Position numbers and translations under genes: made by a program. From assembly GCA_964646415.1 (NCBI GenBank), contig CAZYEL010000005.1, positions 18,601-67,053 of the forward strand: a stretch of 48,453 nucleotides of DNA, in the 5' to 3' direction. Below, piece by piece: positions 1,895 through 48,221 of this stretch. Position 1 is the stretch's first letter; each line of letters opens with the position of its first letter. Origin of the DNA: an uncultured Candidatus Saccharibacteria bacterium (GTDB taxonomy: Bacteria > Patescibacteriota > Minisyncoccia > UBA6257 > 2-01-FULL-56-20). The notes beneath the pieces are model-generated. The model worked only from the letters and a program-made list of their open reading frames with translations, had not been told where the DNA came from and did not search any database.

Positions 1895-2605
1895 TTACTT
1901 GAGGAATCGCATGCGCCAGGGGGTCAGCAATCCTTCGAGAATCATCATGCCGCCGAACTTCGAAACCCCTCCTTGCCTTTCACTGAAAATAATAGGGACT
2001 TCTGCTGCGGCAGCGCCATACTTGCACGCAAGGAATTTCATCTCGATTTGAAACGCATATCCATTGCTCATTATTCCTTTTTCCACAATCCGTTCCAAAA
2101 TCTCCCGGTGATATGCCACGAACCCGGAAGTCAAATCGGCGATGGGGATTCCGGTGGCCATGCGTGCGTAGATATTGGCACATTTACTCAATAACCGCCT
2201 CCGCATGCTCCAGTTTTCCGTTTTTCCGCCTTTTACATACCGGGATCCCACGACAAGGTCATTTCCTTGCTCCATTACTGCGGAGAGTCGTGCGAGGTCG
2301 TCCGGATTGTGCGAAAAATCGGCATCCATGGTGATAATGCGTGTGATGTGCGGGTCGTTCAGGATTGCCTTGAAGGCGGTAATGTACGCCGAAGCCATGC
2401 CGAGTTTCCCCGGCCGGGAGATGAGAGTGATTCCCTCGTAAGCGTGCGCGAGAGTTTCCACTATTTCCGCAGTGCCGTCGGGTGAATTGTCGTCAACCAC
2501 CGTAATGCGGGTTTTTGGGTGTGATTTTTTTATCGCCCTGATAAGCCGTTCTATGCTTCCTTTTTCGTTGTACGTCGGTATTGCGATGACGCTTTCTTCT
2601 TTCAT
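1895..2605 (-). CDS. Polyprenol monophosphomannose synthase (GT2, Ppm1/DPM1-like)
   Basis: IPTYNE, VVDDNSPDGT, TMDADFSH, GSRY, DLTSGF and GYAFQIE motifs; start placed at ATG 2605 (MKEESVIAIP). Confidence 0.85.
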   Translation of the reverse strand: MKEESVIAIPTYNEKGSIERLIRAIKKSHPKTRITVVDDNSPDGTAEIVETLAHAYEGITLISRPGKLGMASAYITAFKAILNDPHITRIITMDADFSHNPDDLARLSAVMEQGNDLVVGSRYVKGGKTENWSMRRRLLSKCANIYARMATGIPIADLTSGFVAYHREILERIVEKGIMSNGYAFQIEMKFLACKYGAAAAEVPIIFSERQGGVSKFGGMMILEGLLTPWRMRFLK

Positions 2606-2711
2606 GTTCAGGCAAGTGCATAGTATACGCACAGTATAACCAATATGTGAGGAATGCCCATGTGTTGAGCCTTTTTCATGTTCGCGGTATGCTTTTGCCA
2701 TACATACGCCG

Positions 2712-3938
2712 ATGTTGCAGTCCAAACTTTTCACCAAGACCAGCCGCAACGCGCCCAAGGACGAGGAAGCGTTGAACGCACAGCTTCTCGTGCGCGGCGG
2801 GTTTGTGCAGAAACTTATGGCGGGGGTGTACTCATTCCTTCCGCTTGGACTTCGGGTAATTCGGAGGATTGAGACAATTGTGCGTGAAGAAATGGTGGCG
2901 ATTGGTGGAGAAGAACTTGCGTTGCCGGTGTTGCACCCGAAGGCAAATTGGTTCGAGACCGGCCGATGGGAAACGTACGACACGCTGTTCCGCTTCACAA
3001 GCCGTTATTCGAAGAATGAGTATGTGCTTGGCCCCACGCATGAGGAGGTGATCGCGCCGCTTGCAAAACAATTTATTTTTTCCTATCAGGACCTGCCGAA
3101 GTACGTGTTTCAGATTCAGACAAAGCTCCGTGATGAGAAACGGGCGAAGTCGGGCCTTCTCCGCGGGCGCGAATTTTTGATGAAGGACCTTTACTCGTTT
3201 CACCGCGACGACGCCGGCCTTGATGGGTATTACGAGAAAGCAAAAGGAGCGTATGCGCGGGTGTTCGAGCGCGTGGGGCTTGGCGCGGACACCGTGCTTA
3301 CGTTCGCCTCGGGCGGCAGTTTCTCGAAGTATTCGCACGAGTTTCAGACGCTCATCCCCGCGGGAGAAGACACCATTTATCTTTGCGAGAAATGCCGCGT
3401 GGCGGTAAATAAGGAAATTATTGCCGAGCAGCCGACATGTCCTTCGTGCCGTGCGAAGGACCTGCAGGAGTGCACCGGCGCCGAAGTGGGAAATATTTTT
3501 AAACTTAAAACGAAGTATTCCACGCCATTCGGGCTTCAATATAAAGACGAGAAAGGGGCGATGCATGATGTGCTCATGGGTTGTTATGGTATTGGTATTT
3601 CGCGGCTCATGGGGGTGGTGGTGGAGCGGTTCCATGACGAGAAAGGAATCATCTGGCCGGAGTCTATCGCTCCCTTCGCGGCGCATCTTATCGAGTTGAA
3701 TGGCGCGTCCGCGTCGGGAGTCTACGATGCTTTACAGAAGAGAGGCGTAGACATACTCTATGACGAGACTGCGCGCTCGGCGGGCGAGAAGCTCACGGAC
3801 GCCGATTTGCTGGGAATCCCTCTGCGTGCGGTGGTGAGCCCCAAGACGAAGGGAAAAGTAGAGCTCAAAGCGCGCAATGCGGACACCGTGGAGTTGGTTG
3901 ATGAGAAAGAGTTTGTCGCGCGCATGAGTGCGTTATAG
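2712..3938 (+). CDS. proS: Prolyl-tRNA synthetase, short form without INS editing domain
   Basis: LGPTHEE, QTKLRDEKRAKSGLLRGREFLMKDLYSFH, EVGNIFKL, MGCYGIG motifs and an anticodon-binding domain (DADLLGIP). Confidence 0.95.
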   Translation: MLQSKLFTKTSRNAPKDEEALNAQLLVRGGFVQKLMAGVYSFLPLGLRVIRRIETIVREEMVAIGGEELALPVLHPKANWFETGRWETYDTLFRFTSRYSKNEYVLGPTHEEVIAPLAKQFIFSYQDLPKYVFQIQTKLRDEKRAKSGLLRGREFLMKDLYSFHRDDAGLDGYYEKAKGAYARVFERVGLGADTVLTFASGGSFSKYSHEFQTLIPAGEDTIYLCEKCRVAVNKEIIAEQPTCPSCRAKDLQECTGAEVGNIFKLKTKYSTPFGLQYKDEKGAMHDVLMGCYGIGISRLMGVVVERFHDEKGIIWPESIAPFAAHLIELNGASASGVYDALQKRGVDILYDETARSAGEKLTDADLLGIPLRAVVSPKTKGKVELKARNADTVELVDEKEFVARMSAL

Positions 3939-3965
3939 GTTATAAGTCATTTGCTATTCGCCATG
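3933..3965 (+). repeat. Degenerate heptamer array spanning the proS stop and mreB start
   Basis: ttATagG ttATaaG tcATttG ctATtcG ccATG, period 7. Confidence 0.55.
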
Positions 3966-5006
3966 AAAATGTTCGACTATATGTTCAGCGACGCGGGAAT
4001 CGATTTGGGAACTTCCAGTACTCTGGTGTATTTGGGGCGCAAGGGTCTTATGGTGAACGAGCCGTCCGTCGTCTCGGTGAATACAAAGACGAACCAAATT
4101 CTCGCGGTGGGGGAGGAGGCGAAGAAGATGATGGGGAGGACCCCCGCGCACATCAGCGTTATCCGACCGCTTGTGGGCGGCGTGGTTTCGGATTTTGAGA
4201 TGACGCAGGAGATGCTGCGGCAGTTTTTGCGGCGGGCGAGCAGGGCGCCTCTCCTCGGGTTTCGTCATGGTGTAATCGCTATTCCCAATGGCGTGACCGA
4301 GGTGGAGCGGAAATCGGTGGAAGACGCGGCAACGAACGCCGGGTGCAGCAAGGTGTACCTTGTTGAAGCGCCTGTGGCTGCGGCCTTGGGCGCGCGGCTT
4401 CCGATTCTCTCGCCTACCGCGAGTCTTATCGTGGATATTGGCGGGGGAACCACCGATGTCGCAGTTATTTCCATGGGGGGGATTGTGGTGGCGAAGACGC
4501 TCCGGGTAGCGGGTGATAAATTGAATGAGGACATTATCCGTTTTGTGCGCGATGAATTCCGGCTTGCCATCGGTGAGCAGACCGCCGAATACCTGAAAAT
4601 TGCGGCAGGGTCCGCGCTCCCCGTTGAGGGGCGCATTGAGGTGGCAATCCGGGGACGGGATTACACGACCGGACTCCCGCGCGAGGTGAGCGTAAAGAAC
4701 GCTAATGTCCGGCAGGCAACCCAAAAGTCGCTTCGTACGATTGTGGATGCCATTCGAGAAGTGATTGAACTTACGCCGCCGGAGCTTGTGGGTGACATGC
4801 TCGCGCAAGGGATATATCTCTGCGGGGGAGGGGCATTGCTCCGCGGTTTGAACGAGCTTGTGGAGCGGGAAACGGCGGTGAAAACCGCGGTTGCGGAAGA
4901 ACCTCTTACCTGCGTGGTGAGGGGGCTGGGGCAAATCGTGGACGATTTTGAGGGATTCCGGACCTTGCTCGATAATCCCCTGAAGCCGCTGGAAATTAAA
5001 TTGTAG
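3963..5006 (+). CDS. mreB: Rod shape-determining protein MreB
   Basis: GIDLGTS, NEPSVV, IRPLVGGVVSDF, VDIGGGTTD, LCGGGALL; first gene of the mreBCD-pbp2 block. Confidence 0.95.
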   Translation: MKMFDYMFSDAGIDLGTSSTLVYLGRKGLMVNEPSVVSVNTKTNQILAVGEEAKKMMGRTPAHISVIRPLVGGVVSDFEMTQEMLRQFLRRASRAPLLGFRHGVIAIPNGVTEVERKSVEDAATNAGCSKVYLVEAPVAAALGARLPILSPTASLIVDIGGGTTDVAVISMGGIVVAKTLRVAGDKLNEDIIRFVRDEFRLAIGEQTAEYLKIAAGSALPVEGRIEVAIRGRDYTTGLPREVSVKNANVRQATQKSLRTIVDAIREVIELTPPELVGDMLAQGIYLCGGGALLRGLNELVERETAVKTAVAEEPLTCVVRGLGQIVDDFEGFRTLLDNPLKPLEIKL

Positions 5007-5069
5007 GAACATGGAACAAGGAACACGGAACAAGAAAATTGCTTTGTCCCTTGTCGCTTGTCCCTTGTC
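5007..5069 (+). repeat. Paired heptamer arrays (GAACAAG-type x4, then near-complementary CTTGTC-type x4)
   Basis: gaacatg gaacaag gaacacg gaacaag (5007-5034); ctttgtc ccttgtc gcttgtc ccttgtc (5042-5069). Confidence 0.85.
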
Positions 5070-5078
5070 GCTATTGTG

Positions 5079-5756
5079 ATGTCCGAAAAGTATCTCATCG
5101 GTTTCCTGGTGGTAATTGCAGTATTGCTTGCGGCGCTGCAGCCCGGTTTCGGTTTCTGGGCACGTGAGGGAATACAAGGAGGAACCGCCGTCCCTGCGGA
5201 TGAGCTGCGTTCGGAAAACGCCGCGCTCAAGGCGCAGCTCGCACGTCATGAGATTGCGCAGTATCAACTTCCCGATTTTCTCGGGAAGACGACCCTTGTG
5301 GAAGTGCACTCCCGGTATCCGTTCGGCTTGAAAAACGAGCTTCTTGTGAATGCCGGGGAGAAGGACGGAGTGCGTGTGGGACAGCCCGCGCTTTTTCATG
5401 GAATGTTTGTGGGAGTTGTCATGAAAGTATTCGACCATGCGGCGATCATTGAAACGATTTTCGATGTGCGCGCAAAGTATGCGGTGCGCGTGGGGAAAAA
5501 AAGTTTCGATGCATTGCTTGAGGGAGGGAGTGAGCCTCGTCTCACGCTTATCGCGAATAGCGCCGAGATTGAGTCGGGAGCGACAATTTACAGTGCCGCC
5601 CCGTCGGTGCCTTACGGGCTTGCGGTTGGCACGGTGAAAGAAGGACGTGCGGGACGGAGCGGGTTGTTCCAGGAGTCGACCATTGCCATACCGTATAGCA
5701 TTGGGGAAATCAGGGTTCTGGAAATAATGACGGAGCACGTTCCTCCGTCTCTTTGA
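5079..5756 (+). CDS. mreC: Rod shape-determining protein MreC
   Basis: N-terminal TM, coiled coil (LRSENAALKAQL), beta domain with NAGEKDGV and PYGLAVGTV; follows mreB. Confidence 0.85.
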   Translation: MSEKYLIGFLVVIAVLLAALQPGFGFWAREGIQGGTAVPADELRSENAALKAQLARHEIAQYQLPDFLGKTTLVEVHSRYPFGLKNELLVNAGEKDGVRVGQPALFHGMFVGVVMKVFDHAAIIETIFDVRAKYAVRVGKKSFDALLEGGSEPRLTLIANSAEIESGATIYSAAPSVPYGLAVGTVKEGRAGRSGLFQESTIAIPYSIGEIRVLEIMTEHVPPSL

Positions 5757-5763
5757 CGCATAC

Positions 5764-5930
5764 TAGAGCATGTTTCGAAACCCCATATCCTGCATCCTCG
5801 CCGATAGTTTCGGCTGCAAACCGTTTTTCCCTCCTCGTAATAGCCCATGCTATTCCTTGTCGCGAGAAAACGGTTTTCGCTCGGACCTCTCGACAAGGTG
5901 CGACGAAAGAGGGTTTCGAAACATGCTCTA
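5764..5930. mobile_element. 167-bp MITE-like element with perfect 20-bp terminal inverted repeats
   Basis: TAGAGCATGTTTCGAAACCC (5764-5783) and GGGTTTCGAAACATGCTCTA (5911-5930); TA at both extremities, internal hairpins, no transposase. Confidence 0.75.
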
Positions 5931-5933
5931 ACC

Positions 5934-6380
5934 ATGAACCGCACAATGTTTGCCGCAGTGCTTCTTTGCGTGATTGCGTTCCTGCTGCAAATACAGTTTG
6001 GGGGGAACGGGTTCGGTTTTGAAAACGCAGTCCTCGTCACTCTTATTGCGCTCGCGTGCGTGCGTGATGTGCTGCAGATCGTGTTTCTCGGCATCATTGC
6101 CGCATGGTTTTTAAACTGGCAACCGGGTGTGAGTGCGGAAGTCGTGCTTCTTGTGGCGATTCCCGTTGCGGTGAGTTTACTGAAGGGCATATTCCCCGGT
6201 TTGTTCCTGGTGAGTTATTGGGCAGCTGTCGTTCTTGGCGTAGGGTTGTGGTATGTGGCGGCGGATTTTCGCTTGATAGTGGAGACTCCTTCCGCGTTGA
6301 TGAATGAAATTGCGTTGGGTTGTATATGGGCTGCCGCATGTATCGTGCCAATACGTATTCTTGCCCGCGATTCACGCTAG
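5934..6380 (+). CDS. mreD: Probable MreD (multi-pass membrane protein)
   Basis: 148-aa hydrophobic protein between mreC and pbp2; assigned mainly by synteny. Confidence 0.6.
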   Translation: MNRTMFAAVLLCVIAFLLQIQFGGNGFGFENAVLVTLIALACVRDVLQIVFLGIIAAWFLNWQPGVSAEVVLLVAIPVAVSLLKGIFPGLFLVSYWAAVVLGVGLWYVAADFRLIVETPSALMNEIALGCIWAAACIVPIRILARDSR

Positions 6381-6480
6381 TTCATGCAAGCATTGTTGAG
6401 AGCAATTCTCCGCAGCATGTCCCGCGGCAGAATTTCAAGACGTTTGGTGAACTTTGCTTGAAATTTCACTGCGGGGCATA

Positions 6481-8379
6481 ATGGGTTGTATGAGATGGTT
6501 TCCAAGAAAGGATGGCAACGAGGGCGCCCCTGCTTTTGAGGAGGCAGTTGCGGAAGATTGGGCTGAAGGAGCCGAAACGGTGGAAGTACCGCTTGGCAGT
6601 CATCCCCTGATTTATGTGTGGTTTCTTGTATTACTACTGGCCATCGGTTTCGCGGGGCGGGTAGTTTTCTTGAGCATCGGAAAAGGGACGGTGTATGCTG
6701 CGCGCGCCAGGGCGAACCTGGAACAGGTAAAAAAGACCATTCCCCTCCGCGGGATTATCACGGACCGATTTGGCACGGTGCTCGCGGAAAACAAGATTGT
6801 GCCCTATGTGTTTCTGGAAACAGGGAAGTTTTTGAAGCACGAGGAACTGCAGGAACCGACACTCCAGGCGTTGCGCCAGGTTGCGGACATTGCGCCCGAT
6901 GAAGTATGGGGTTGGATTCGCGATGCGGACCCCGACCGTCTCGGCGAGAGAATTCCTATTCCCATAGAGGTGAGCGACAGGATACTGGTGATGCTGAAAG
7001 GATTGAATCTTTCCACGGTCGTTGTCGAGGACGGCGTTGAGCGGGTGTATAAAAAAGGGAAAGCGTTTTCGCAGGTGCTGGGGTATGTGGGGTTTCCCGG
7101 TGCGGCGGATTTGCAGGCGAATCCGTTGATAAGCGCGGATGAGATGGTCGGGAAAGACGGCGTTGAGCGTTCCTATAACAGTTTGCTGCGGGGGGATGCG
7201 GGAATCACCGTGGTGCGGCGGGACGCGCTGGGGAATGTGCTCGATACATCCGAACGGCAAGCGCCCTCCCGCGGCGAGACTTTGCGTCTTACGATTGATG
7301 CGGACCTCCAGACTTATTTTTACGAGCGTCTTGGGGCGGGATTGCGTTCGCTGGGGCGTAAAGTGGGAGTGGGTATTGCGATGAACCCGAAGACCGGAGA
7401 GGTGCTTGCGCTTGTGCAGGAGCCTTCCTATGACAACGGCATTCTCTCGAAGACCGGGCATACGAGCGAGAAAAAGGCAATTTTGACTTCACCCGAGAAG
7501 CCCCTTTTCAACAGGGCGATTTCCGGGGCATATAGTCCCGGTTCCACGATAAAACCGCTTGTGGGAATCGCGGCGCTGAAGGAGGGGGTGATTGACCCCG
7601 AGCGTAAGATTTTTTCCCCGGGGTATCTGGATATTCCAAACCCCTTTGACCCCTCGAAACCCACTCGCTACAAAGACTGGCGGGCTCATGGAAATGTGGA
7701 TTTGGCGGCGGCAATCGCCGTTTCGAGCGACGTCTATTTCTACGAGGTCGGCGGCGGAGCACCGGGTGGTCCGAAAGGATTGGGGATCGAGCGCTTGCGG
7801 GGATGGTGGGAGAAATTCAATCTCGGCACGCTCACCGGCATTGATCTTCCCGGCGAAGTTGAGGGGTTTCTCCCTTCAGTCGAATGGAAAGAGAAGCGCG
7901 AGAAGCGGCCGTGGCTTTTGGGAGACACCTACAACGTTTCGATCGGGCAGGGCGACTTGCTCATAACGCCGATGCAGCTTCTTTTATATCTGAACGCCGT
8001 CGCTACGGGGGGAAAGCTCTTGCGTCCTGTGATTGCGGAGGAAGCGCCGCATCCGGTGGTAGTGAAGGATTTTTCCGACCTTGCACCCGAAATTGCGGAA
8101 GTGGTGAAAGGCATGCGTCAGGCGGTCACCGCACCGAACGCGACGATTTATGCTTTGCATGATTTGCCGTTCACGCTTGCAGCGAAAACCGGAAGCGCCC
8201 AGGTATACAACAACCGCAAGGTAAACGCCTTCTTTGTGGGCTATGCGCCCGTCGAGGACCCGCAGCTTATTGTGCTTGTTCTTGTGGAAGATGCCAAAGA
8301 GGGGGCTTTGAACGCCATCCCCGTGGGCGGGGATGTGCTCAAGTGGTACTATGAGCGTAGGATAGTAGGTAGTAAGTAG
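6481..8379 (+). CDS. mrdA: Penicillin-binding protein 2 (class B transpeptidase)
   Basis: RGIITDRFG dimerisation domain; catalytic STIK (SxxK), SSD (SxD) and KTG motifs. Start may be 6481 or 6490. Confidence 0.92.
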   Translation: MGCMRWFPRKDGNEGAPAFEEAVAEDWAEGAETVEVPLGSHPLIYVWFLVLLLAIGFAGRVVFLSIGKGTVYAARARANLEQVKKTIPLRGIITDRFGTVLAENKIVPYVFLETGKFLKHEELQEPTLQALRQVADIAPDEVWGWIRDADPDRLGERIPIPIEVSDRILVMLKGLNLSTVVVEDGVERVYKKGKAFSQVLGYVGFPGAADLQANPLISADEMVGKDGVERSYNSLLRGDAGITVVRRDALGNVLDTSERQAPSRGETLRLTIDADLQTYFYERLGAGLRSLGRKVGVGIAMNPKTGEVLALVQEPSYDNGILSKTGHTSEKKAILTSPEKPLFNRAISGAYSPGSTIKPLVGIAALKEGVIDPERKIFSPGYLDIPNPFDPSKPTRYKDWRAHGNVDLAAAIAVSSDVYFYEVGGGAPGGPKGLGIERLRGWWEKFNLGTLTGIDLPGEVEGFLPSVEWKEKREKRPWLLGDTYNVSIGQGDLLITPMQLLLYLNAVATGGKLLRPVIAEEAPHPVVVKDFSDLAPEIAEVVKGMRQAVTAPNATIYALHDLPFTLAAKTGSAQVYNNRKVNAFFVGYAPVEDPQLIVLVLVEDAKEGALNAIPVGGDVLKWYYERRIVGSK

Positions 8380-8398
8380 TATGTGGTAGGTAGTAGGG
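8364..8398 (+). repeat. AGTAGGT-type heptamer array containing the pbp2 stop codon
   Basis: agtaggt agtaagt agtatgt ggtaggt agtaggg. Confidence 0.85.
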
Positions 8399-8411
8399 GT
8401 GCGAATGCTTA

Positions 8412-8448
8412 AAGGTTAAACCTTAAGAATTCCCCAAGGTTCAACCTT
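8412..8448. promoter_or_regulatory. Double palindrome AAGGTTNAACCTT (copy A), upstream of paralog 1
   Basis: AAGGTTAAACCTT 8412-8424 and AAGGTTCAACCTT 8436-8448; ATG at 8459. Function inferred only. Confidence 0.6.
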
Positions 8449-8458
8449 GAAGAATCCA

Positions 8459-10237
8459 ATGAATTCCGAAACCAAGGTTTGTCAAAACTGCAACAATAAT
8501 TTCACAATCGAATCGGCTGATCGTGAGTTTTACAAGAAAGTGCAGGTGCCTCCGCCCACGTTTTGCCCGGAGTGCAGGTTCACGCGCCGCTTGATTTTAA
8601 GAAATGAGCGCGGCCTTTATAAGAGAAAATGCGATCTTTGCGGGGAGGAGAAGATAGTATCGTTTCCATTCCAAAGCCCGTTTAAAGTTTATTGCAAAGA
8701 ATGTTGGTGGAGCGACAAGTGGGATGCGGGAATATATGGCCGCGAGTATGATTTTTCTAAACCGTTTTTCGAACAGTTTTTTGATTTGGTTAAAGCGGTT
8801 CCTCGTCCGGGGATCGTTCATCAAGGGATGATTGTAGATAGCCCATATACCAACCGAGCGAGCAATCTCAAGAATTGCTATTTGCTTTATGCGAGTAACT
8901 TTGACGAGAATTGTTCTTACGGCGCGTGGTTCAACGATTCGAAAGATTCGATGGACGGTCTGGCGGTTCAAAAATCGGAGCAATGCTATGAGTGCATAGA
9001 TTGCGTTGAGTGCAGCCGGTTATTATATTCGCAGGAATGTATCGCGTGCAGTAACTCGTATTTTTTGCTGAATTGCCGCAATTGCGAGAGCTGTTTCGGA
9101 TGCGTCAATCTGCGGAATAAAAGCTACTGCATATACAACAAGCAGTATTCGAAAGAGGATTACAAACGGGTGCTCGCGCAGTTTAATCTAGGCAGTCGGA
9201 TGATGCGGGACGCCCTCGCCTTACAATTCGGAGCGCAAAAAGGAAAATATATTTTTCCGTCTTTGATTTCGCGGCACAGTCAGAACGTTTCCGGTAATTG
9301 GATCGAAGAATCCAAAAATGTATTCAGGGGGTTTTCCTGCCGGAAGGTGGAAGATGCGAGATATTCTTCCATGCTTGTCGAATCGAAAGACGTGATGGAT
9401 TACTCGTTCTGGGGCCGCGCGACCGAGCTTATTTATGAATCTGTGAATATAGGGTATCAATCTTCGAATATCCGTTTCAGCACAGAAATTTGGGATAATG
9501 CCGCAGACATAACTTATTCTTTTAATTGCCACAGTTCCCATGATCTTTTTGGGTGTGTCGGATTAAGGAAAAAGGATTATTGCATTTTAAACAAGCAGTA
9601 TTCAAAAGAAGACTTTGAGGCAATCTCCAAAAAAATAATCGAACAGATGAAGACGATGCCGTATATCGATGGCAAGGGCAGGAAATATTCGTACGGAGAG
9701 TTTTTCCCCGCGGACTTGCATCTTTTTGCGTACAATGAGACGACCGCGCATGAATATTTTCCGCTGACAAAAGAAGATGCTCTGCGGCAGGGATATGCAT
9801 GGAAGGATGGAGAGGGCCGCAATTATAAAATAACGCTTCCGGCGGATCAAATTCCTGACGGTATAAAAGAGGTGTCCGGTGACATTCTGAAAGAGATTGT
9901 GGGGTGTGCGCACGCCGGAAATTGCAATCACCAGTGCACTACCGCGTTTCGCGTCACTTCGGAGGAGCTTCAATTTTATAAGACTTTCGGAATACCTATC
10001 CCGCAGTTTTGTCCGAATTGTCGGTATTATGAACGCGTGAGCAAAAGGAACCCCTTGAAATTATGGGCAAGAAAATGCGAGTGCGGCGGGGATCGCGCTA
10101 TGCGGGGCGCTTATAAAAATAACTCCGCGCATTCCCACGGAACAGATCCTTGTGCTGTGGTGTTTGAGACAAGCTACGCCCCCGACCGACCGGAAATCGT
10201 GTATTGCGAGAACTGCTACAATGCCGAGGTCGCATAA
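8459..10237 (+). CDS. Cys-rich multi-zinc-ribbon protein, paralog 1
   Basis: N-terminal CxxC...PPxxCxxCR, W-x-D-x-WD, two CxxCxxC...FGC-x-x-LR-x-K-x-YCI-x-NKQYSKE modules, YGEFFP...AYNET, C-terminal YCxxCY; about 35 Cys by my count. Confidence 0.9.
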   Translation: MNSETKVCQNCNNNFTIESADREFYKKVQVPPPTFCPECRFTRRLILRNERGLYKRKCDLCGEEKIVSFPFQSPFKVYCKECWWSDKWDAGIYGREYDFSKPFFEQFFDLVKAVPRPGIVHQGMIVDSPYTNRASNLKNCYLLYASNFDENCSYGAWFNDSKDSMDGLAVQKSEQCYECIDCVECSRLLYSQECIACSNSYFLLNCRNCESCFGCVNLRNKSYCIYNKQYSKEDYKRVLAQFNLGSRMMRDALALQFGAQKGKYIFPSLISRHSQNVSGNWIEESKNVFRGFSCRKVEDARYSSMLVESKDVMDYSFWGRATELIYESVNIGYQSSNIRFSTEIWDNAADITYSFNCHSSHDLFGCVGLRKKDYCILNKQYSKEDFEAISKKIIEQMKTMPYIDGKGRKYSYGEFFPADLHLFAYNETTAHEYFPLTKEDALRQGYAWKDGEGRNYKITLPADQIPDGIKEVSGDILKEIVGCAHAGNCNHQCTTAFRVTSEELQFYKTFGIPIPQFCPNCRYYERVSKRNPLKLWARKCECGGDRAMRGAYKNNSAHSHGTDPCAVVFETSYAPDRPEIVYCENCYNAEVA

Positions 10238-43226: not shown

Positions 43227-43254
43227 TTGACGCGTGAGCGGGGCATCGTAGAAT
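43227..43254 (+). promoter_or_regulatory. Probable sigma70 promoter
   Basis: TTGACG (43227-43232), 16 bp, TAGAAT (43249-43254). Confidence 0.5.
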
Positions 43255-43274: not shown

Positions 43275-44021
43275 ATGAAAACAAGAATTGTAATCCTTGC
43301 TGCTGGAAACAGCACGCGCATGAACGGTATCCCCAAGGTGCTTTTAGATATCGGCGGCACCCCGATGCTTGTGCGTGTGGTAGATGCGGCGGTTGCGTCC
43401 GGCGTGGACCGCCATCCGGTCATCGTCGTGGGAGTCCACGGCGGCGCGATGCGGCAGGCTCTCGACAACCGGTGCGACTATGTGGTGCAAGAGCGTCAGC
43501 TCGGTACAGGGCACGCGGTTCAGTGTGCCGAGTCGGCGCTCCGCGGGTTTGCGGAAACGGTCATTGTGCTCTATGGCGATAATCCGCTTATTCAGCCCCG
43601 CACAATCCGGTTGCTCGCCGAGGTGCACGAGAGGAGCATGGCGGCAATTACGATGCTTACGACGACCGTACCGGACTTTGAGGATTGGCGGAGGCCCTTC
43701 TATGACTTTGGGCGGCTTGTACGGGATGCAGGCGGGAATGTGGTGAAGAGCGTTGAGAAAAAAGATGCGAGCCCTCAAGAGCTTGGGATCAAGGAACTCA
43801 ATCCCTCGTGTTACTGCTTCACTGCGGCGTGGCTTTGGGAGCACCTTCCGAAGATTAAAAGTCATAATGCGCAAGGGGAGTATTATCTCACGGACCTCGT
43901 GCAGATTGCGATTGAGGAAGGGGCCAAGGTGGAAGCGATTCCCGTTGATGCGCACGAGGTGATTGGCGTGAACACTCCGGAGCAGCTCGAAATCGTGAGG
44001 AAGCTTTCGGAGATGCAGTAA
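43275..44021 (+). CDS. GlmU-like uridyltransferase domain only (no acetyltransferase domain)
   Basis: ILAAGNSTRM...PKVL, QERQLGTGHAV, LYGDNPL, FGRLVRD, EKKDAS, NAQGEYYLTD, GVNTPEQL; stops after 248 aa. Confidence 0.85.
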   Translation: MKTRIVILAAGNSTRMNGIPKVLLDIGGTPMLVRVVDAAVASGVDRHPVIVVGVHGGAMRQALDNRCDYVVQERQLGTGHAVQCAESALRGFAETVIVLYGDNPLIQPRTIRLLAEVHERSMAAITMLTTTVPDFEDWRRPFYDFGRLVRDAGGNVVKSVEKKDASPQELGIKELNPSCYCFTAAWLWEHLPKIKSHNAQGEYYLTDLVQIAIEEGAKVEAIPVDAHEVIGVNTPEQLEIVRKLSEMQ

Positions 44022-44032
44022 ATTCAACTGCA

Positions 44033-44803
44033 TCACTCAAGGGAATTCCAGAGCGCGTCGAAGATGAGGAACTGGGTTTTGTATATCCCCGGGTCTTCGA
44101 TGATGAGGCCGTGCGGCGCGCCGTTCTGGTTCACCGAAATCATCGCGACTTTCCCCGCGTAGAGGAGCGTGTAGGTCGGCGCGCCCTCTTCCTTCGTGAG
44201 CCATTTGCGCTCGTCCTTGCCGTGGATGTCGCCGCCAGGACCGATACCGATGGCGCGCATCGCGATTTTCCGTTTGATGCGTTCTTCGGTGAACGCGGGA
44301 AATGCGTCTTTGTGATAGAGATACGGGCGGATAGTGGAAGATGAGTATGCAGCATATTCACGCGCGGGAAGCGCTTCGGTCGCGTCGAGCACGTCCTCGA
44401 GAATGGTGCGGAGTCCCGCGTAGCCCCTGTAATACTTTACCGTGGGGCTGCTTCCCGCGGCGCGGGAGAGCGAGGAGAGTTCGGGAATAATTTCTTTGAT
44501 GGCGGCTTCGGTTGTTGCGATATCTTGTTTTCTCCGGAGGAGAAGGTTCACGAGCGCCTTTGGTTCTTCGGCGACGAAGTGTTGGCGTTTCTCTTTATGG
44601 TAGTAGGAGACCAGTCCGCGGCTCTGGAGCGCCTTGAGCGCATCATGCGTGGTACCTCTGTTGATGCCCGCGTGCTCCGCGATTTTCCTGATTGCGGTGG
44701 GTCCGAGCGAGAGAAGCGAGAGATAGACTGCCGCTTCCTTAGGGTTTAACCCAAGCCCCAGAAGGGCGGATTGCATGGCTTCTGTGATATTGGATTTTGT
44801 CAT
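44033..44803 (-). CDS. TrmB-family transcriptional regulator
   Basis: LGLNPKEAAVYLSLL...IAEHAGINRGTTHDALKAL..RGLV HTH plus a C-terminal effector domain. Confidence 0.88.
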   Translation of the reverse strand: MTKSNITEAMQSALLGLGLNPKEAAVYLSLLSLGPTAIRKIAEHAGINRGTTHDALKALQSRGLVSYYHKEKRQHFVAEEPKALVNLLLRRKQDIATTEAAIKEIIPELSSLSRAAGSSPTVKYYRGYAGLRTILEDVLDATEALPAREYAAYSSSTIRPYLYHKDAFPAFTEERIKRKIAMRAIGIGPGGDIHGKDERKWLTKEEGAPTYTLLYAGKVAMISVNQNGAPHGLIIEDPGIYKTQFLIFDALWNSLE

Positions 44804-44820
44804 CGGTTCCTTATTTAATA

Positions 44821-44921
44821 TGTCAAATTGCCTTTTTTGTCAAATTAATGCTGACAATAAAAGCTTTTATGAAGTATTATAATGTTTTGTGTCATATATA
44901 TTGTCAAAAAAATCGTTGACA
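44821..44921. promoter_or_regulatory. AT-rich divergent promoter region with TGTCA-N9/10-TGACA inverted motifs
   Basis: TGTCA-N9-TGACA 44838-44856, TGTCA-N10-TGACA 44902-44921, half-sites at 44821 and 44890; TATAAT 44878-44883. Confidence 0.55.
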
Positions 44922-45029
44922 TAAATGGCGTTGGGAATATCCTCTTTGATAAGGTAGAAGGAATTATTGGTTTTTGTTCTGTCTGCCTCCAGTCAACTTA
45001 ACAATTAAAAACCGGAAAGGAGACTTCCT

Positions 45030-45989
45030 ATGAAATGGGAAGGACTTTTGGATAGTGACAGAGTTGTTATCCCCGCACATAACGAGGAAGCCTCCATCGG
45101 CCTCGTCGTGGGTTACCTCATGGAGCACGGGCTTCGTGGGGAACAATTGCTTATCGTGGACAGCAATTGCACTGATGGGACCGTGCAAGCCGCACTTAGT
45201 GCTGCACGGGCTTACCAATCTGATGGCGCGCTCCGGGTTGTCCAGCAGAGTGAAATGCTGAAACTTTACACGCACAAGTTTGTTGTACCGTGCGGGACAG
45301 TCGAACGTGAGGCTACGCTCAGGAATGCGGGAAAGGGAGCAGCGATGTACGCGGCAGTGCTTGCGCTCAAGCGCGAGGGTCACTCGCCAGAAAGTCGCGT
45401 TTTCTTCCTTGATGGGGATATTACAAACCCGGGCAAGGTTGATATGATTGGTTGTTTGCTCAGGGCATGGGAGCGGAAGCCGAACGCTCGCATTGCGAAG
45501 CTTGCGTCCGCAGGCCGTGATAACAATGGGATGCTTTCCTTCATCAACACGCTGCCACGTCCGTACAACCAGTTGAGTAACCTTGCGTGGCCGCTTTGTG
45601 GTCAGCAGTCACTTCGGTTGGGAGACTTGCAACGTATCCCGTTTCCCACGCAGTACAGCGTGGAGGTTGCGCTCCTCGCGGTGCTCGCCGAGCTGTACGG
45701 CGGTGAATGTTTCTCACAAGAACCAATTCCTGCGCCCCTTGTAGAAGAAGCACATCCGGATGACTTGCAGCGATATGTCCGGATGTTCACCAGCATTATG
45801 TTGTTCTTAAAGGCTGTGGTTACCTACGGTCCTTTGGACAACATGGGGCGATCTGAGATTGATGCGTGGAATCGCGGATCGTGGCGTACAGTCACAGACA
45901 TTGGTGTGCCCCACGTTGCTTCGAATGGGAATGTTCGCGAAACGCTCGTAGTCGATGAACTATTGCCGCCAGTCAACAGTCTAGTCTGA
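45030..45989 (+). CDS. Glucosyl-3-phosphoglycerate synthase (GpgS)-like GT-A glycosyltransferase
   Basis: VIPAHNEE, VDSNCTDGT, GKGAAM, FLDGDI, WPLCGQ, QYSVEVALL, parallel to GpgS motifs. Confidence 0.65.
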   Translation: MKWEGLLDSDRVVIPAHNEEASIGLVVGYLMEHGLRGEQLLIVDSNCTDGTVQAALSAARAYQSDGALRVVQQSEMLKLYTHKFVVPCGTVEREATLRNAGKGAAMYAAVLALKREGHSPESRVFFLDGDITNPGKVDMIGCLLRAWERKPNARIAKLASAGRDNNGMLSFINTLPRPYNQLSNLAWPLCGQQSLRLGDLQRIPFPTQYSVEVALLAVLAELYGGECFSQEPIPAPLVEEAHPDDLQRYVRMFTSIMLFLKAVVTYGPLDNMGRSEIDAWNRGSWRTVTDIGVPHVASNGNVRETLVVDELLPPVNSLV

Positions 45990-46061
45990 ACAAGTGAGGG
46001 TGGGAATGTATGCTTTACAAGCTGCTTCCCACCCAAACCCTTATCTAGTAAACTATATTTT

Positions 46062-47150
46062 ATGAATAAGATAACCATTGGCATCATTGGCGCGGGGTAT
46101 ATCGGCAAAGAACATGCCCGTACCATCCGGCTCGTGCAGAATTTTTTCGGCAATTCGGTATCGCTCGTCGGCATTGCGGATAAAAATAAAAAGGCGGCGG
46201 AGGACGCCGCGCGCCATTTTCAGATTTCCTATGCGACGGATGATATAGATGCGGTCATAAACGACGCCCGTATCAATACTATTTTTGTGTGCCTCCCTAC
46301 AGCGTTCCATATTGACGTTGTGCGTAAGGTTGCCGCAGCGGGGAAGAATATTTTTTGCGAGAAACCCTTCGCGGTTTCTCTGGAGAAAGCAAAGGAGGTG
46401 CATCAGCTGCTGGTGAAGAATAAGATTCGGCACCAGGTTGGTTTTGTGCTCCGGTACACTCCCGCATACCATGCTTTAAAGAAAATCATCGAGCAGCGCG
46501 CGGAAGAGTCTGACCTCCGCACAATTTTACTGCGCGACGACCAAGTATTTCCCATTAAAGGACTTTCCCATTTTACGGATTGGCGCAGCAACGTGGAGCT
46601 TGCCGGTGCGGGAGTGCTTGCGGAGCATGGCATTCACGACATTGATATTCTGGAATGGTTTTTTGGGAAGATGAAAAGAGTTTCGGCACGCATCAAAAAT
46701 TATGCAGGGCACAAGGGGATTGAGGACTATATGGAGGTGCGTTTCGAAACAGAGAAGGGTGTAGCGGGCAACATGGTGCATCTCTGGCACGAAATTCAGG
46801 CACACCAATCCATACGTCATTTCGAGATATTTTTTCAAAAAGCGCTTATCGAAGCCGATACGTACGATATGCACCACATCAGCGTGCGCGATAGTGCCGC
46901 ACTGCACATTTATGAGCGTCCTGACCTCTACGCAATGATAAAGAATGACCCTCTTTTTAAGGATATTTCACACCGGGAGGACGTGGTGTTTCTTGCAGAC
47001 TACTATGCGTGCCAAGTGTATTGGTTCTTGAGGAATTTATTGGAAGGTGCCCCTCTTACGCCCACTATTGATGATGGACTGCGTGCATTCGTAATAGCCG
47101 ATGCCTGTTACCGTAGCGCCGCGAAGGACAGTGAGTGGATTATGGTGTAA
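46062..47150 (+). CDS. Gfo/Idh/MocA family oxidoreductase
   Basis: IGIIGAGYIG, CLPTAFH, CEKP, GFVLRY, GVLAEHGIHDID. Confidence 0.92.
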   Translation: MNKITIGIIGAGYIGKEHARTIRLVQNFFGNSVSLVGIADKNKKAAEDAARHFQISYATDDIDAVINDARINTIFVCLPTAFHIDVVRKVAAAGKNIFCEKPFAVSLEKAKEVHQLLVKNKIRHQVGFVLRYTPAYHALKKIIEQRAEESDLRTILLRDDQVFPIKGLSHFTDWRSNVELAGAGVLAEHGIHDIDILEWFFGKMKRVSARIKNYAGHKGIEDYMEVRFETEKGVAGNMVHLWHEIQAHQSIRHFEIFFQKALIEADTYDMHHISVRDSAALHIYERPDLYAMIKNDPLFKDISHREDVVFLADYYACQVYWFLRNLLEGAPLTPTIDDGLRAFVIADACYRSAAKDSEWIMV

Positions 47151-48176
47151 CTAACGCGCCGCAATTATCTCCCGCACTTCCTTCTCCTTGCGGAGGATGT
47201 CTTGCGTGAGAGCGACAAGGCTCTTGGCACGGGCTTTATTGTGCTCTTTGCGGGAAGGATATTTCTTCGGATTCCATCCGAAGTAGCTGTCGAGGTGCAC
47301 ATCCTTCGCAAACCGTGAGGCGAGCCCGAGCGTGACCATGGCAAACGCCTGCACAAGGTACTCTTTCATCTCCGGCGAGAGGGGCTGCACGCTGCGGTAG
47401 CCCTCAATACTGTATTTGAACCGCGGGAGGGACATCGTATTGGGAAATGCTTCCTCCGAAATGGCGCACCAGCGAAGCGCATCGCCCATGTCTACGAGCG
47501 GCGTGTGTTGCATACAGGTATCGAGGTCTATCATGCAAACACCCTTGCCGTTCCTGAATACGACATTCGAGATTTTTGGGTCGGCGTGGATGACGGTTTG
47601 CGGGAGGTCGGTGGGAAGCATGAGCGAGGGGAATTTCTCATGGATGTAGCGGTAGCTCTCGCGCTGTTCTTTATTTGGCTCATCACGCAGAAGATTTTCG
47701 TACGCCGCGCAAAACGATTTGTAGATTTCCTGTGCGTTATGAAGGAACGGTTTGCTGGCGAGGAGCTTTGCGTCAAAATCTTTCATGGCGGCATGGAACG
47801 TCGCGAGCACTTTGCCTGCCTCGGCGGCGTATTCATCATGGGGCAAGTTTTCATAGATGTCGCCTTCGATGAATGTGGTGAGGCGCCACACTTTTCCCGG
47901 AGCTTCCTTGTGGAATAGGGCCCCGTCATTGGTGTGAATAATACGGGGAGCAATCACGCCCTTGTGCGCAAGGTGTGCTGTTACTCGCTCCATATCCCGA
48001 ACCGTCGCTTCATCAAAAACTTTTCCCAACAATTGGAGGATATATTTCCCGCTTTCGGCCTTAACGCGGTAGGTGGTATTGATGTGCCCGGAAAGGATGG
48101 GGGATATGTTTTCTATTTGCCCGATGGAGTAATGGGCAAGCACTTCGCGAACACTCTTTTCGTCTATGCCGTTCAT
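47151..48176 (-). CDS. N-acetylhexosamine 1-kinase (NahK)-like APH-fold kinase
   Basis: GHINTTY, YILQ, WRL, HADPKISN, IDLDT, DMGDALR, RF..D...SYF, EHN.AR; motif order matches NahK as I recall it. Confidence 0.7.
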   Translation of the reverse strand: MNGIDEKSVREVLAHYSIGQIENISPILSGHINTTYRVKAESGKYILQLLGKVFDEATVRDMERVTAHLAHKGVIAPRIIHTNDGALFHKEAPGKVWRLTTFIEGDIYENLPHDEYAAEAGKVLATFHAAMKDFDAKLLASKPFLHNAQEIYKSFCAAYENLLRDEPNKEQRESYRYIHEKFPSLMLPTDLPQTVIHADPKISNVVFRNGKGVCMIDLDTCMQHTPLVDMGDALRWCAISEEAFPNTMSLPRFKYSIEGYRSVQPLSPEMKEYLVQAFAMVTLGLASRFAKDVHLDSYFGWNPKKYPSRKEHNKARAKSLVALTQDILRKEKEVREIIAAR

Positions 48177-48192
48177 GGCAATATTCGCAGGA

Positions 48193-48221
48193 ATTATACA
48201 CAATTCCCATACCATTGACAG
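48193..48221 (-). promoter_or_regulatory. Probable sigma70 promoter of the kinase
   Basis: CTGTCA (48221-48216), 17 bp, TATAAT (48198-48193). Confidence 0.55.

What the first reader, a model, noticed from the sequence alone, without database searches (positions are those of the whole stretch)
43275..48176. Possible host-GlcNAc salvage route: NahK-like kinase plus uridyltransferase-only GlmU
Seen: the GlmU-like protein ends before the acetyltransferase domain, and a NahK-like kinase lies about 3 kb away, with a Gfo/Idh/MocA enzyme, GpgS-like GT and TrmB regulator between them. Established: NahK makes GlcNAc-1-P directly, the substrate of the GlmU N-domain; AmgK-MurU is the analogous shortcut for MurNAc. 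Inference: an episymbiont builds UDP-GlcNAc for its wall (mre/pbp2/ddl are in this window) from scavenged host amino sugars, bypassing GlmS/GlmM.
Basis: partly seen in the sequence, partly recalled or inferred. Interest (0 to 1): 0.55.

Follow-up and report, generated by a model that had tools for sequence, protein, structure and literature searches.

The report
GlcNAc salvage kinase plus half-GlmU
A tiny groundwater bacterium that cannot make or acetylate amino sugars carries a NahK-type sugar kinase near a GlmU enzyme that has only its uridine-adding half, which together probably turn scavenged N-acetylglucosamine into the cell-wall precursor UDP-GlcNAc.

Summary
The window holds a GlmU uridylyltransferase domain with no acetyltransferase half (43275-44021), a TrmB-like regulator, a GT2-like transferase, a Gfo/Idh/MocA oxidoreductase and an APH-fold kinase (47151-48176). 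The kinase's closest solved relative in sequence and fold is NahK.

The 1.03 Mb, 98% complete genome has no GlmS, no full GlmU, no hexapeptide acetyltransferase, no ROK kinase and no NagA. It does have MurA, MurC-F, MraY, MurG and a signal-peptide-bearing NagZ-like GH3. GlcNAc -> GlcNAc-1-P -> UDP-GlcNAc is therefore the only route I can see.

The kinase and half-GlmU lie close together in at least four deeply diverged kinase lineages. In other genomes the kinase sits beside other enzymes that use sugar-1-phosphates.

Limits:
- The kinase is rare: 2 of 300 sampled Patescibacteria.
- Half-GlmU is common (65 of 300) and mostly occurs without the kinase.
- The sister species keeps GlmS inside the same island.
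- Substrate and host origin are untested.

An earlier report of this scan (e1-5215950) described the same arrangement on other DNA. Verdict: a plausible new variant of known anomeric-kinase salvage shortcuts, of moderate interest.

The parts
43275..44021 (+). GlmU N-terminal domain only: predicted GlcNAc-1-P uridylyltransferase, 248 aa (an upstream TTG at 43227 would give 264 aa)
   Evidence: GlmU equivalog models match only over model positions about 2-240. Best PDB hits are GlmU N-domains, E 6e-41. All 16 E. coli GlmU uridylyltransferase residues checked are kept except G16S, and the protein ends at E. coli position about 242.
44033..44803 (-). TrmB-family HTH regulator, convergent with the half-GlmU gene and divergent from GT2
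   Evidence: PF01978, 45.3 bits. Orthologues (40-83% identity) lie next to the kinase and/or half-GlmU in 10 of the fetched loci and in G003.
44838..44921 (.). Two palindromes TGTCA-N9/10-TGACA (44838-44856 and 44902-44921) in the trmB/GT2 divergent intergenic region: candidate TrmB operators
   Evidence: These are the only two matches in the 48 kb window. Equivalent pairs lie directly upstream of trmB in G003 (L018 9949, 10014) and L095 (4348, 4424).
45030..45989 (+). GT-A/GT2-like glycosyltransferase, function unknown
   Evidence: PF00535 is below cut-off and the GpgS model gives 50.6 bits against a cut-off of 262. Orthologues sit in the same island in L072 (39% identity) and L053.
46062..47150 (+). 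Gfo/Idh/MocA NAD(P)-dependent sugar oxidoreductase, substrate unknown
   Evidence: PF01408 and PF02894. Nearest solved relatives are levoglucosan and inositol dehydrogenases. Orthologues of 57-62% identity lie beside the kinase in L072 and L053.
47151..48176 (-). NahK-family anomeric sugar kinase, 341 aa (ORF open to 48389; alternative ATG at 48215)
   Evidence: PF01636. NahK is the best PDB match by phmmer (E 2e-27), by family profile (186 bits, E 7e-54, against homoserine kinase at 58.6 bits) and by fold (pLDDT 94.6; TM 0.87/0.84 to 4ocj). An extended -10-like TGTGTATAAT lies just upstream of the ATG at 48176.

Best explanation
This is a two-enzyme salvage shortcut to UDP-GlcNAc. The proposed steps are below; (1) to (3) are inferred from homology and context, and only the gene content of (4) and (5) is shown.

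1. Free N-acetylglucosamine is taken up. It is probably released outside the cell by the signal-peptide-bearing NagZ-like GH3 encoded elsewhere in the genome.
2. The NahK-family kinase (47151-48176) phosphorylates it at C1 with ATP, giving GlcNAc-alpha-1-P.
3. The GlmU uridylyltransferase-only protein (43275-44021) converts GlcNAc-1-P plus UTP to UDP-GlcNAc.
4. UDP-GlcNAc feeds MurA and MurG for peptidoglycan, and possibly the neighbouring GT2/Gfo pair.
5. Because the sugar arrives already N-acetylated, GlmS, GlmM and the GlmU acetyltransferase are all dispensable, and none of them was found in this genome.

A TrmB-like regulator with paired palindromic sites probably controls part of the island.
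For: Kinase:
- NahK is the nearest solved protein, end to end, by sequence, by family profile (186 against 58.6 bits for the next hit) and by fold (TM 0.87).
- By my count, about 25 of the 34 most conserved profile positions are identical in NahK. These include HxDxK..N, IDLDT, GD, RF..D, YF and HN..R.

Product is a sugar-1-phosphate. Across more than 537 loci of the family, the recurrent neighbours outside a ribosomal-operon lineage are:
- half-GlmU (own, G003, L026, L030, L063, L072);
- archaeal-type sugar-1-P nucleotidylyltransferases directly downstream (L089, L100);
- GalU (L045);
- a PGM/PMM mutase directly downstream in 8 Myxococcota loci.

The kinases in the half-GlmU-linked loci are only 31-62% identical to each other. 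A second, divergent NahK-like kinase lies 1 kb from half-GlmU in G002.

Half-GlmU:
- All catalytic and GlcNAc-contact residues checked are conserved.
- In other CPR genomes it is fused to, or adjacent to, Mur ligases, which ties it to peptidoglycan precursor synthesis.

Need for the route. The own genome (98.3% complete) gave:
- no GlmS;
- no GlmM above cut-off;
- no Hexapep protein, no ROK, no NagA;
- MurA, MurC-F, MraY, MurG and Ddl, and a NagZ-like GH3 with an N-terminal hydrophobic leader.

Of 37 small kinase-positive genomes, 27 have half-GlmU, against 65 of 300 in the phylum sample.
Against: - No biochemical data exist, and identity to NahK is only about 26%, so the sugar could differ (MurNAc, GalNAc or another hexose).
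- The two genes are 3 kb apart, on opposite strands and in different transcription units. The TGTCA-N9/10-TGACA site was not found upstream of either.
- The kinase is rare in the phylum (2 of 300). 64 of the 65 half-GlmU genomes in that sample lack it, so other GlcNAc-1-P sources exist.
- In the same genus, G001 has half-GlmU beside a divergent PfkB kinase and a HAD protein and has no APH kinase.
- G003, G164 and G249 have the kinase together with GlmS.
- One PGM/PMM-type mutase (Arch_GlmM model 330 bits, below the cut-off of 439) could in principle make GlcNAc-1-P from GlcNAc-6-P.
- No GlcNAc transporter was identified.
- The assembly is in 41 contigs, and the island ends at a contig end.
Confidence: 0.6

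Rival explanations
1. The kinase phosphorylates a different substrate, such as MurNAc (AmgK-like), another hexose or a non-sugar. Its nearness to half-GlmU would then reflect a shared sugar island rather than consecutive steps.
For: Identity to NahK is only about 26%. No curated NCBIfam model claims the protein; the best is homoserine kinase at 93 bits, below its cut-off. About 21 loci place the gene between fusA and tuf with no sugar genes nearby. Neighbours also include GalU and PGM, which act on glucose phosphates.
Against: NahK scores three times higher than homoserine kinase with the family profile, and the match covers the C-terminal substrate lobe. The half-GlmU linked in four or more diverged lineages keeps the GlcNAc-contact residues, including N169. 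MurA is present, so UDP-MurNAc can be made from UDP-GlcNAc.
Confidence: 0.17
2. GlcNAc-1-P comes mainly from GlcNAc-6-P through the single PGM/PMM-type mutase (a eukaryote-like AGM1 step). The kinase would be auxiliary.
For: A 483-aa mutase is present, scoring 330 bits on the archaeal GlmM model. Half of the half-GlmU genomes in the phylum have GlmS but no GlmU acetyltransferase, which implies acetylation at the 6-phosphate level followed by a mutase or a phosphatase/kinase step. ROK and HAD genes lie in the L026, L030 and L072 islands.
Against: No source of GlcNAc-6-P or GlcN-6-P was found in this genome: no GlmS, no ROK kinase, no NagA.
Confidence: 0.1
3. The island is a five-gene module that makes a specialised GlcNAc-derived glycoside or solute. 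The kinase and half-GlmU would supply the UDP-sugar and GT2 and Gfo would transform it. Peptidoglycan supply would be secondary or come from elsewhere, for example UDP-GlcNAc imported from a host as proposed for TM7x.
For: The full set (kinase, Gfo, GT2, half-GlmU, TrmB) recurs in L072, with GT2 and Gfo on the same strand and in the same run of genes as half-GlmU. Gfo, GT2 and the kinase also recur together in L053. The candidate TrmB operators face the GT2-Gfo pair. Host transfer of UDP-GlcNAc has been proposed for TM7x (PMC10768705).
Against: GT2 and Gfo are missing from most kinase/half-GlmU loci and are replaced by GlmS-Acs-Xfp in G003. Fusions of half-GlmU to Mur ligases point to peptidoglycan. 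The two uses of UDP-GlcNAc do not exclude each other.
Confidence: 0.12

Closest known systems
NahK, N-acetylhexosamine 1-kinase of Bifidobacterium longum (PDB 4OCJ, 4WH1-3)
   Same: The fold and full-length architecture are the same. The catalytic HxDxK..N and IDLDT motifs, the GHINTTY N-lobe motif and the C-terminal RF..D / YF / HN..R motifs are shared. The predicted chemistry is the same: ATP-dependent C1 phosphorylation of GlcNAc.
   Different: Identity is about 26%. The gene context is not the catabolic GNB/LNB operon (GH112 phosphorylase, GalT, GalE; PMC8106489). Here the context is anabolic: half-GlmU, TrmB, GT2 and Gfo. The family occurs in CPR and in Myxococcota, Bradymonadia and Bdellovibrionales-type genomes.
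AmgK-MurU (with MupP) anabolic peptidoglycan-sugar recycling of Pseudomonas
   Same: The logic is the same: an anomeric kinase of the APH superfamily followed by a GlmU-like uridylyltransferase bypasses de novo steps. AmgK is described as an anomeric MurNAc and GlcNAc kinase (PMC5371407). HAD-type proteins accompany the pair in L026, L030 and L072.
   Different: The kinase is NahK-like, not AmgK-like. The transferase is a true GlmU N-domain rather than MurU: GlmU models score 216 bits and MurU is not among the top models. The predicted product is UDP-GlcNAc rather than UDP-MurNAc. In this genome the route would be the only one, not a bypass.
Bifunctional GlmU, and the engineered NahK + GlmU route used to make UDP-GlcNAc
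   Same: The uridylyltransferase active site is conserved. Expressing NahK to feed GlcNAc-1-P to GlmU in E. coli is an established engineered shortcut (PMC10462111, listed).
   Different: No LbH acetyltransferase domain is present here or anywhere in the genome. N-only GlmU has been noted in a few non-CPR bacteria, with an unknown acetyltransferase postulated (bioRxiv 10.64898/2026.06.23.733835).

Membership tests
NahK (N-acetylhexosamine 1-kinase) | APH/ePK-like fold with catalytic HxDxxxxN and Mg-binding DxD motifs | tested here: met
   PF01636, 93.5 bits. IHADPKISN and IDLDT align with NahK's HNDTKLNN and IDLDT. These positions are invariant in 22 family members.
NahK (N-acetylhexosamine 1-kinase) | Closest solved relative over the full length, including the substrate lobe | tested here: met
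   phmmer E 2e-27 over residues 83-410 against chain residues 31-372. Profile score 186 bits against 58.6 for homoserine kinase. Foldseek TM 0.87/0.84, rmsd 2.7 A.
NahK (N-acetylhexosamine 1-kinase) | Phosphorylates GlcNAc/GalNAc at the anomeric C1 | not testable with these tools
   This needs an enzyme assay. The papers listing NahK's sugar-contact residues are not in the held library.
NahK (N-acetylhexosamine 1-kinase) | Sits in the GNB/LNB catabolic operon (GH112 phosphorylase, GalT, GalE, ABC transporter) | tested here: not met
   The neighbours here are Gfo/Idh/MocA, GT2, TrmB and half-GlmU. None of the recurrent neighbour clusters I annotated in the 80 loci is one of those genes.
GlmU (bifunctional) | N-terminal uridylyltransferase domain with the LxxGxGTxMxxxxPK signature and sugar/metal residues | tested here: met
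   L11 A12 A13 G14 R18 K25 Q76 Q79 G81 T82 Y103 D105 G140 E154 N169 N227 are all conserved, with G16S the only change.
GlmU (bifunctional) | C-terminal left-handed beta-helix acetyltransferase domain | tested here: not met
   The match stops at model position about 240 of 452 and the stop codon aligns with E. coli residue about 242. No Hexapep match was found anywhere in the genome.
AmgK-MurU recycling pair | AmgK-type kinase adjacent to a MurU-type uridylyltransferase | tested here: not met
   The kinase's nearest relative is NahK. The transferase scores as GlmU, not MurU. The genes are 3 kb apart on opposite strands. The logic is analogous, but this is not membership.
TrmB sugar-sensing regulators | N-terminal TrmB winged-helix domain plus a C-terminal sugar-binding domain | tested here: inconclusive
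   The HTH domain is met (PF01978 45.3 bits, above the cut-off of 25.6). The full-length TrmB/TrmBL1 models give only 23-25 bits against cut-offs of 600-650. The C-terminal 180 aa are unassigned.
GpgS (glucosyl-3-phosphoglycerate synthase, GT81) | Full-length match to GpgS models or structures | tested here: not met
   NF010496 gives 50.6 bits against a cut-off of 262, over residues 12-72 only. PDB GpgS E 0.003.

The most novel reading that the evidence does not exclude
Patescibacteria as a whole may lack bifunctional GlmU (0 of 300 sampled) and build UDP-GlcNAc from GlcNAc-1-P with a stand-alone, sometimes Mur-ligase-fused, uridylyltransferase. The locus around this gene would be a hot spot where interchangeable feeder modules plug in: a NahK-like anomeric kinase, a divergent PfkB kinase with HAD, or GlmS with Acs and phosphoketolase. 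In genomes such as this one, only the kinase feeder is left, so the cell wall would depend strictly on N-acetylglucosamine taken from other cells. The same kinase family in predatory Myxococcota, Bradymonadia and Bdellovibrionales would serve prey cell-wall salvage.
Probability: 0.3. Interest if true: 0.7.

Novelty: new variant of a known kind. Interest (0 to 1): 0.5.

Why it matters
How ultra-small CPR bacteria obtain UDP-GlcNAc is unresolved. For the cultivated TM7x, the literature states that it cannot make UDP-GlcNAc and suggests transfer from the host (PMC10768705). A natural NahK-type kinase plus uridylyltransferase-only GlmU would give some lineages a simple two-step answer that can be tested directly. 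It would also name the exact nutrient (free GlcNAc) that ties them to other cells, which is useful for cultivation attempts.

The broader counts add to recent evidence that GlmU is not universal in bacteria. No full-length GlmU was found in 300 sampled Patescibacteria, half-GlmU was found in about a fifth of them, and some copies are fused to Mur ligases.

The kinase itself is rare. It solves the problem for a few lineages, not for the phylum.

Tried and rejected
I took context from the genome search, the fetch from genomes and the search for related loci instead.
- Papers listing NahK's sugar-contact residues are not held, so I could not do a residue-by-residue test of the sugar pocket.
- No paper in the library combines NahK or GlmU with CPR/Patescibacteria.
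- A MurA-like gene lies 5-6 kb from the kinase in 13 loci. I rejected this as evidence because it belongs to a single lineage's synteny block (MurA, M50 peptidase, rpsL, rpsG, fusA, kinase, tuf).
- A phylum-wide co-occurrence test was not informative, with only 2 kinase-positive genomes in 300.
- The TGTCA-N9/10-TGACA site is not present upstream of the kinase or of half-GlmU, so a shared regulon is not shown.
- The 'GpgS-like' label for the GT is rejected.
- The ESM Atlas look-up gave only generic APH clusters.
- The PfkB and CofD/YvcK genes that flank half-GlmU in sister genomes are not found in this genome.
- My simple ORF caller masked some genes in GC-rich loci; for example, half-GlmU in L017 was hidden by an antisense ORF.
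Full report
**What is there**

The window is G000:C5:18601-67053 of a 1.03 Mb assembly in 41 contigs, 98.3% complete and 0.2% contaminated. Earlier notes of this scan call the genome Candidatus Liptonbacteria. The closest kinase homologue and the closest related locus carry that name in public records.

ORF listing and family scans give the following genes, in order:
- ribosomal protein L31 (42862-43146, -);
- a GlmU-like nucleotidyltransferase (ATG at 43275, to 44021, +);
- a TrmB-HTH regulator (44033-44803, -);
- a GT2-like glycosyltransferase (45030-45989, +);
- a Gfo/Idh/MocA oxidoreductase (46062-47150, +);
- an APH-fold kinase (47151-48176, -; ORF open to 48389).

The contig ends at 48453. 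The genes form at least three transcription units.

**The half-GlmU**

Eleven GlmU equivalog models match it, but only over their first about 240 positions. The best solved relatives are GlmU N-domains (E 6e-41).

I aligned it to E. coli GlmU, taken from the K-12 record. It keeps L11, A12, A13, G14, R18, K25, Q76, Q79, G81, T82, Y103, D105, G140, E154, N169 and N227, with G16S the only change. It stops at E. coli residue about 242. The roles I attach to these residues come from my own knowledge of the E. coli and S. pneumoniae GlmU structures. The importance of position 169 is also stated in the S. aureus NagU preprint. That truncated N-terminal GlmU fragments keep uridylyltransferase activity is likewise from my own knowledge and was not checked here.

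No other contig holds a GlmU C-domain. The Hexapep model finds nothing in the whole genome, while it rings in all 14 control genomes.

In other Patescibacteria the same domain is fused to Mur ligases: G142 (686 aa), G340 (684 aa) and G325 (666 aa). In G143 and G276 it lies next to Mur ligase genes. This independently ties the stand-alone domain to peptidoglycan precursor synthesis.

**The kinase**

- phmmer against PDB sequences puts NahK first (E 2e-27, aligned end to end) and homoserine kinase second (8e-16).
- A profile of 22 family members (alignment A1) widens the gap: 186 bits (E 7e-54) against 58.6 bits.
- An AlphaFold2 model (mean pLDDT 94.6) superposes best on NahK with GlcNAc (4ocj; TM 0.87/0.84, rmsd 2.7 A, 26% identity). 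Homoserine kinase follows at TM 0.72.
- By my count on the printed alignment, about 25 of the 34 most conserved profile positions are identical in NahK. They include motifs in the C-terminal helical lobe (RF..D, YF, HN..R), which in APH-type kinases shapes the substrate site; that last point is an inference.
- No curated NCBIfam model claims the protein. I could not obtain the papers that list NahK's sugar contacts. The substrate therefore remains inferred.

**Is the route needed?**

Searches of the own genome gave these results:

| Searched for | Result | Calls |
|---|---|---|
| glmS | only PurF and a 312-aa SIS protein | 10, 13; tblastn 77 |
| glmM | a single PGM/PMM-type mutase (PgmG 367 bits, archaeal GlmM model 330 bits against a cut-off of 439) | 11, 13 |
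| ROK kinase | none | 64 |
| NagA | none | 65 |
| GH73 | none | 78 |
| MurA | 445 bits, above cut-off | 32 |
| MurC, D, E, F, MraY, MurG, FtsW, Ddl | present | 98 |
| MreB, MreC, PBP2 | present in the window | 86 |
| GH3 | a 373-aa single-domain protein, best match the NagZ-type beta-N-acetylhexosaminidase model (168.6 bits against a cut-off of 207), with a hydrophobic N-terminal leader | 79, 82, 83 |

The cell therefore consumes UDP-GlcNAc but has no visible way to make or acetylate an amino sugar. Entry of pre-acetylated GlcNAc through an anomeric kinase is the simplest closure.

**Linkage elsewhere**

The kinase family is large. At least 537 loci were found in species-representative genomes. 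They come from CPR lineages (Uhr-, Kerfeld-, Lipton-, Pace-, Taylor-, Saccharibacteria and Parcubacteria) and from Myxococcota, Bradymonadia, Bdellovibrionales and others. Several MAGs of 1 Mb or less labelled 'Gammaproteobacteria' also carry it.

I fetched 80 loci. About 21 share one lineage-specific arrangement, with the kinase between fusA and tuf, and say nothing about function. In the rest, the most recurrent neighbours are as follows:
- the TrmB-like regulator, in 8-10 loci, directly adjacent in L046, L048, L081 and L095;
- nucleotidyltransferases: half-GlmU in L026, L030, L063 and L072, archaeal-type sugar-1-P transferases directly downstream in L089 and L100, and GalU in L045;
- a PGM/PMM mutase directly downstream in eight Myxococcota loci;
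- HAD, ROK and DUF218 proteins in some islands.

All of these partners use or make sugar-1-phosphates, which fits an anomeric kinase.

The kinases in the half-GlmU-linked loci are only 31-62% identical to one another, so the linkage has survived deep divergence. A rough binomial estimate for four or more of 27 genomes having the two genes within 8 kb by chance is about 0.001. The loci are not fully independent, so this overstates the case.

L072 (OZ246400.1) carries the complete set of kinase, Gfo, GT2, half-GlmU and TrmB.

**Limits of the co-occurrence**

| Sample | NahK-like kinase | Half-GlmU | Full-length GlmU | GlmS |
|---|---|---|---|---|
| 60 close relatives | only G003 (79% identical) | 8 | none | not searched (G001-G004 and G036 only: G003 alone positive) |
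| 300 Patescibacteria (even sample) | 2 | 65 | 0 | 141 |
| 37 small kinase-positive genomes | all | 27 | none | not searched |
| 13 large kinase-positive genomes | all | - | 10 | not searched |

In the 300-genome sample, 34 of the 65 half-GlmU genomes also have GlmS, by my cross-tabulation. Half-GlmU is thus a common CPR feature that mostly works without this kinase, so other sources of GlcNAc-1-P must exist.

Within the genus, the gene next to half-GlmU varies:
- G001 has a divergent PfkB kinase plus a HAD protein.
- G002 and G004 have a second NahK-like subfamily (best PDB hit again NahK, E 8e-16), the PfkB kinase and a CofD/YvcK protein.
- G003 has the orthologous kinase. Between it and trmB lie an IMPase-family phosphatase, a phosphoketolase fused to a CoA-binding domain, acetyl-CoA synthetase and a full GlmS.

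In this genome GT2 and Gfo occupy that slot, and GlmS, Acs and Xfp are not found anywhere. The kinase is therefore not a marker of GlmS loss. Here it simply appears to be the only feeder left.

**Regulation**

The only two matches to TGTCA-N9/10-TGACA in the window lie in the trmB/GT2 intergenic region. Similar pairs lie just upstream of trmB in G003 and in L095. This suggests autoregulation and control of the divergent operon. It does not show control of the kinase or of half-GlmU.

**Comparison with what is known**

- Mechanistically this resembles NahK chemistry placed in an AmgK-MurU-like anabolic setting (PMC5371407).
- It also resembles the engineered NahK + GlmU shortcut (PMC10462111).
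- It is not a member of the GNB/LNB operon type, nor of AmgK/MurU.
- N-only GlmU has been noted in a few non-CPR species.
- No paper in the library links NahK or GlmU with CPR.
- For TM7x, host supply of UDP-GlcNAc has been proposed (PMC10768705).
- An earlier report of this scan (e1-5215950) reached the same reading on another genome. I treat that as a lead, not as support.

**Verdict**

The salvage route is the best explanation (about 0.6). It is a new variant of known anomeric-kinase shortcuts, restricted to certain lineages, and of moderate interest.

Noticed in passing
window 44838-44856 and 44902-44921; L018 9949 and 10014; L095 4348 and 4424: Paired palindromes TGTCA-N9/10-TGACA lie directly upstream of the TrmB-like gene in three lineages, and are the only matches in each sequence. 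They are candidate operators, facing GT2-Gfo here and GlmS-Acs-Xfp in G003.
   Followed up: partly
L105:795-2855 (+), L106:741-2795 (-), L107:903-2903 (-): In other Patescibacteria the GlmU uridylyltransferase-only domain is fused to a complete Mur ligase, at either end. In L108 and L109 it lies beside Mur ligase genes.
   Followed up: partly
phylum sample of 300 genomes: No sampled Patescibacteria genome has a GlmU match above the full-length cut-off. 65 have the N-domain alone, and 34 of those also have GlmS, which implies an unidentified acetylation step. G325:C9:1851-2426 encodes an LbH-only fragment matching GlmU positions 247-439.
   Followed up: partly
L018 (G003:C12) 2061-9944: In the sister species, the slot between the kinase and trmB holds an IMPase-family phosphatase, a phosphoketolase fused to a CoA-binding domain (934 aa), acetyl-CoA synthetase and GlmS. 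This genome has GT2 and Gfo there instead.
   Followed up: partly
L017 8570-12450; L019 8039-10645; L023 3285-6221; L022 622-3186: In sister genomes half-GlmU is flanked by a very divergent PfkB-family kinase (42-58 bits), a HAD hydrolase and/or a CofD/YvcK-family protein. Neither PfkB nor CofD was found in this genome by tblastn; the HAD query also gave no hit.
   Followed up: partly
L082:9032-10768 and seven other Myxococcota loci (L036, L039, L047, L052, L055, L091, L097): A 578-aa PGM/PMM-family mutase (archaeal GlmM model, 170 bits) lies directly downstream of the NahK-like kinase. This suggests a sugar-1-P to sugar-6-P catabolic pairing in predatory bacteria.
   Followed up: partly
about 21 loci, e.g. 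L049, L042, L092: In an Uhrbacteria-type lineage the kinase is a fixed insert between fusA and tuf in the str/S10 ribosomal region. A small PrmA-like methyltransferase gene lies on the opposite strand just upstream of it.
   Followed up: no
G000:C30:5248-6369 (-) = L114: A single-domain GH3 protein, NagZ-like, with an N-terminal hydrophobic leader (MRRITLTIFILAIFMGGMNLLAQ...). It is probably extracytoplasmic. A uridine phosphorylase gene lies about 2 kb away.
   Followed up: partly
L072:14763-15731 (-), L030:12406-13335 (-), L026:6502-7437 (-): A ROK-family sugar kinase and a HAD hydrolase sit in the same gene run as TrmB and half-GlmU in three loci. This hints at a 6-kinase / phosphatase-or-mutase / 1-kinase network.
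   Followed up: no
window 48177-48200 (minus strand): An extended -10-like TGTGTATAAT lies immediately upstream of the ATG at 48176 of the kinase, suggesting a very short leader. The database gene call (354 aa) starts at 48215.
   Followed up: no
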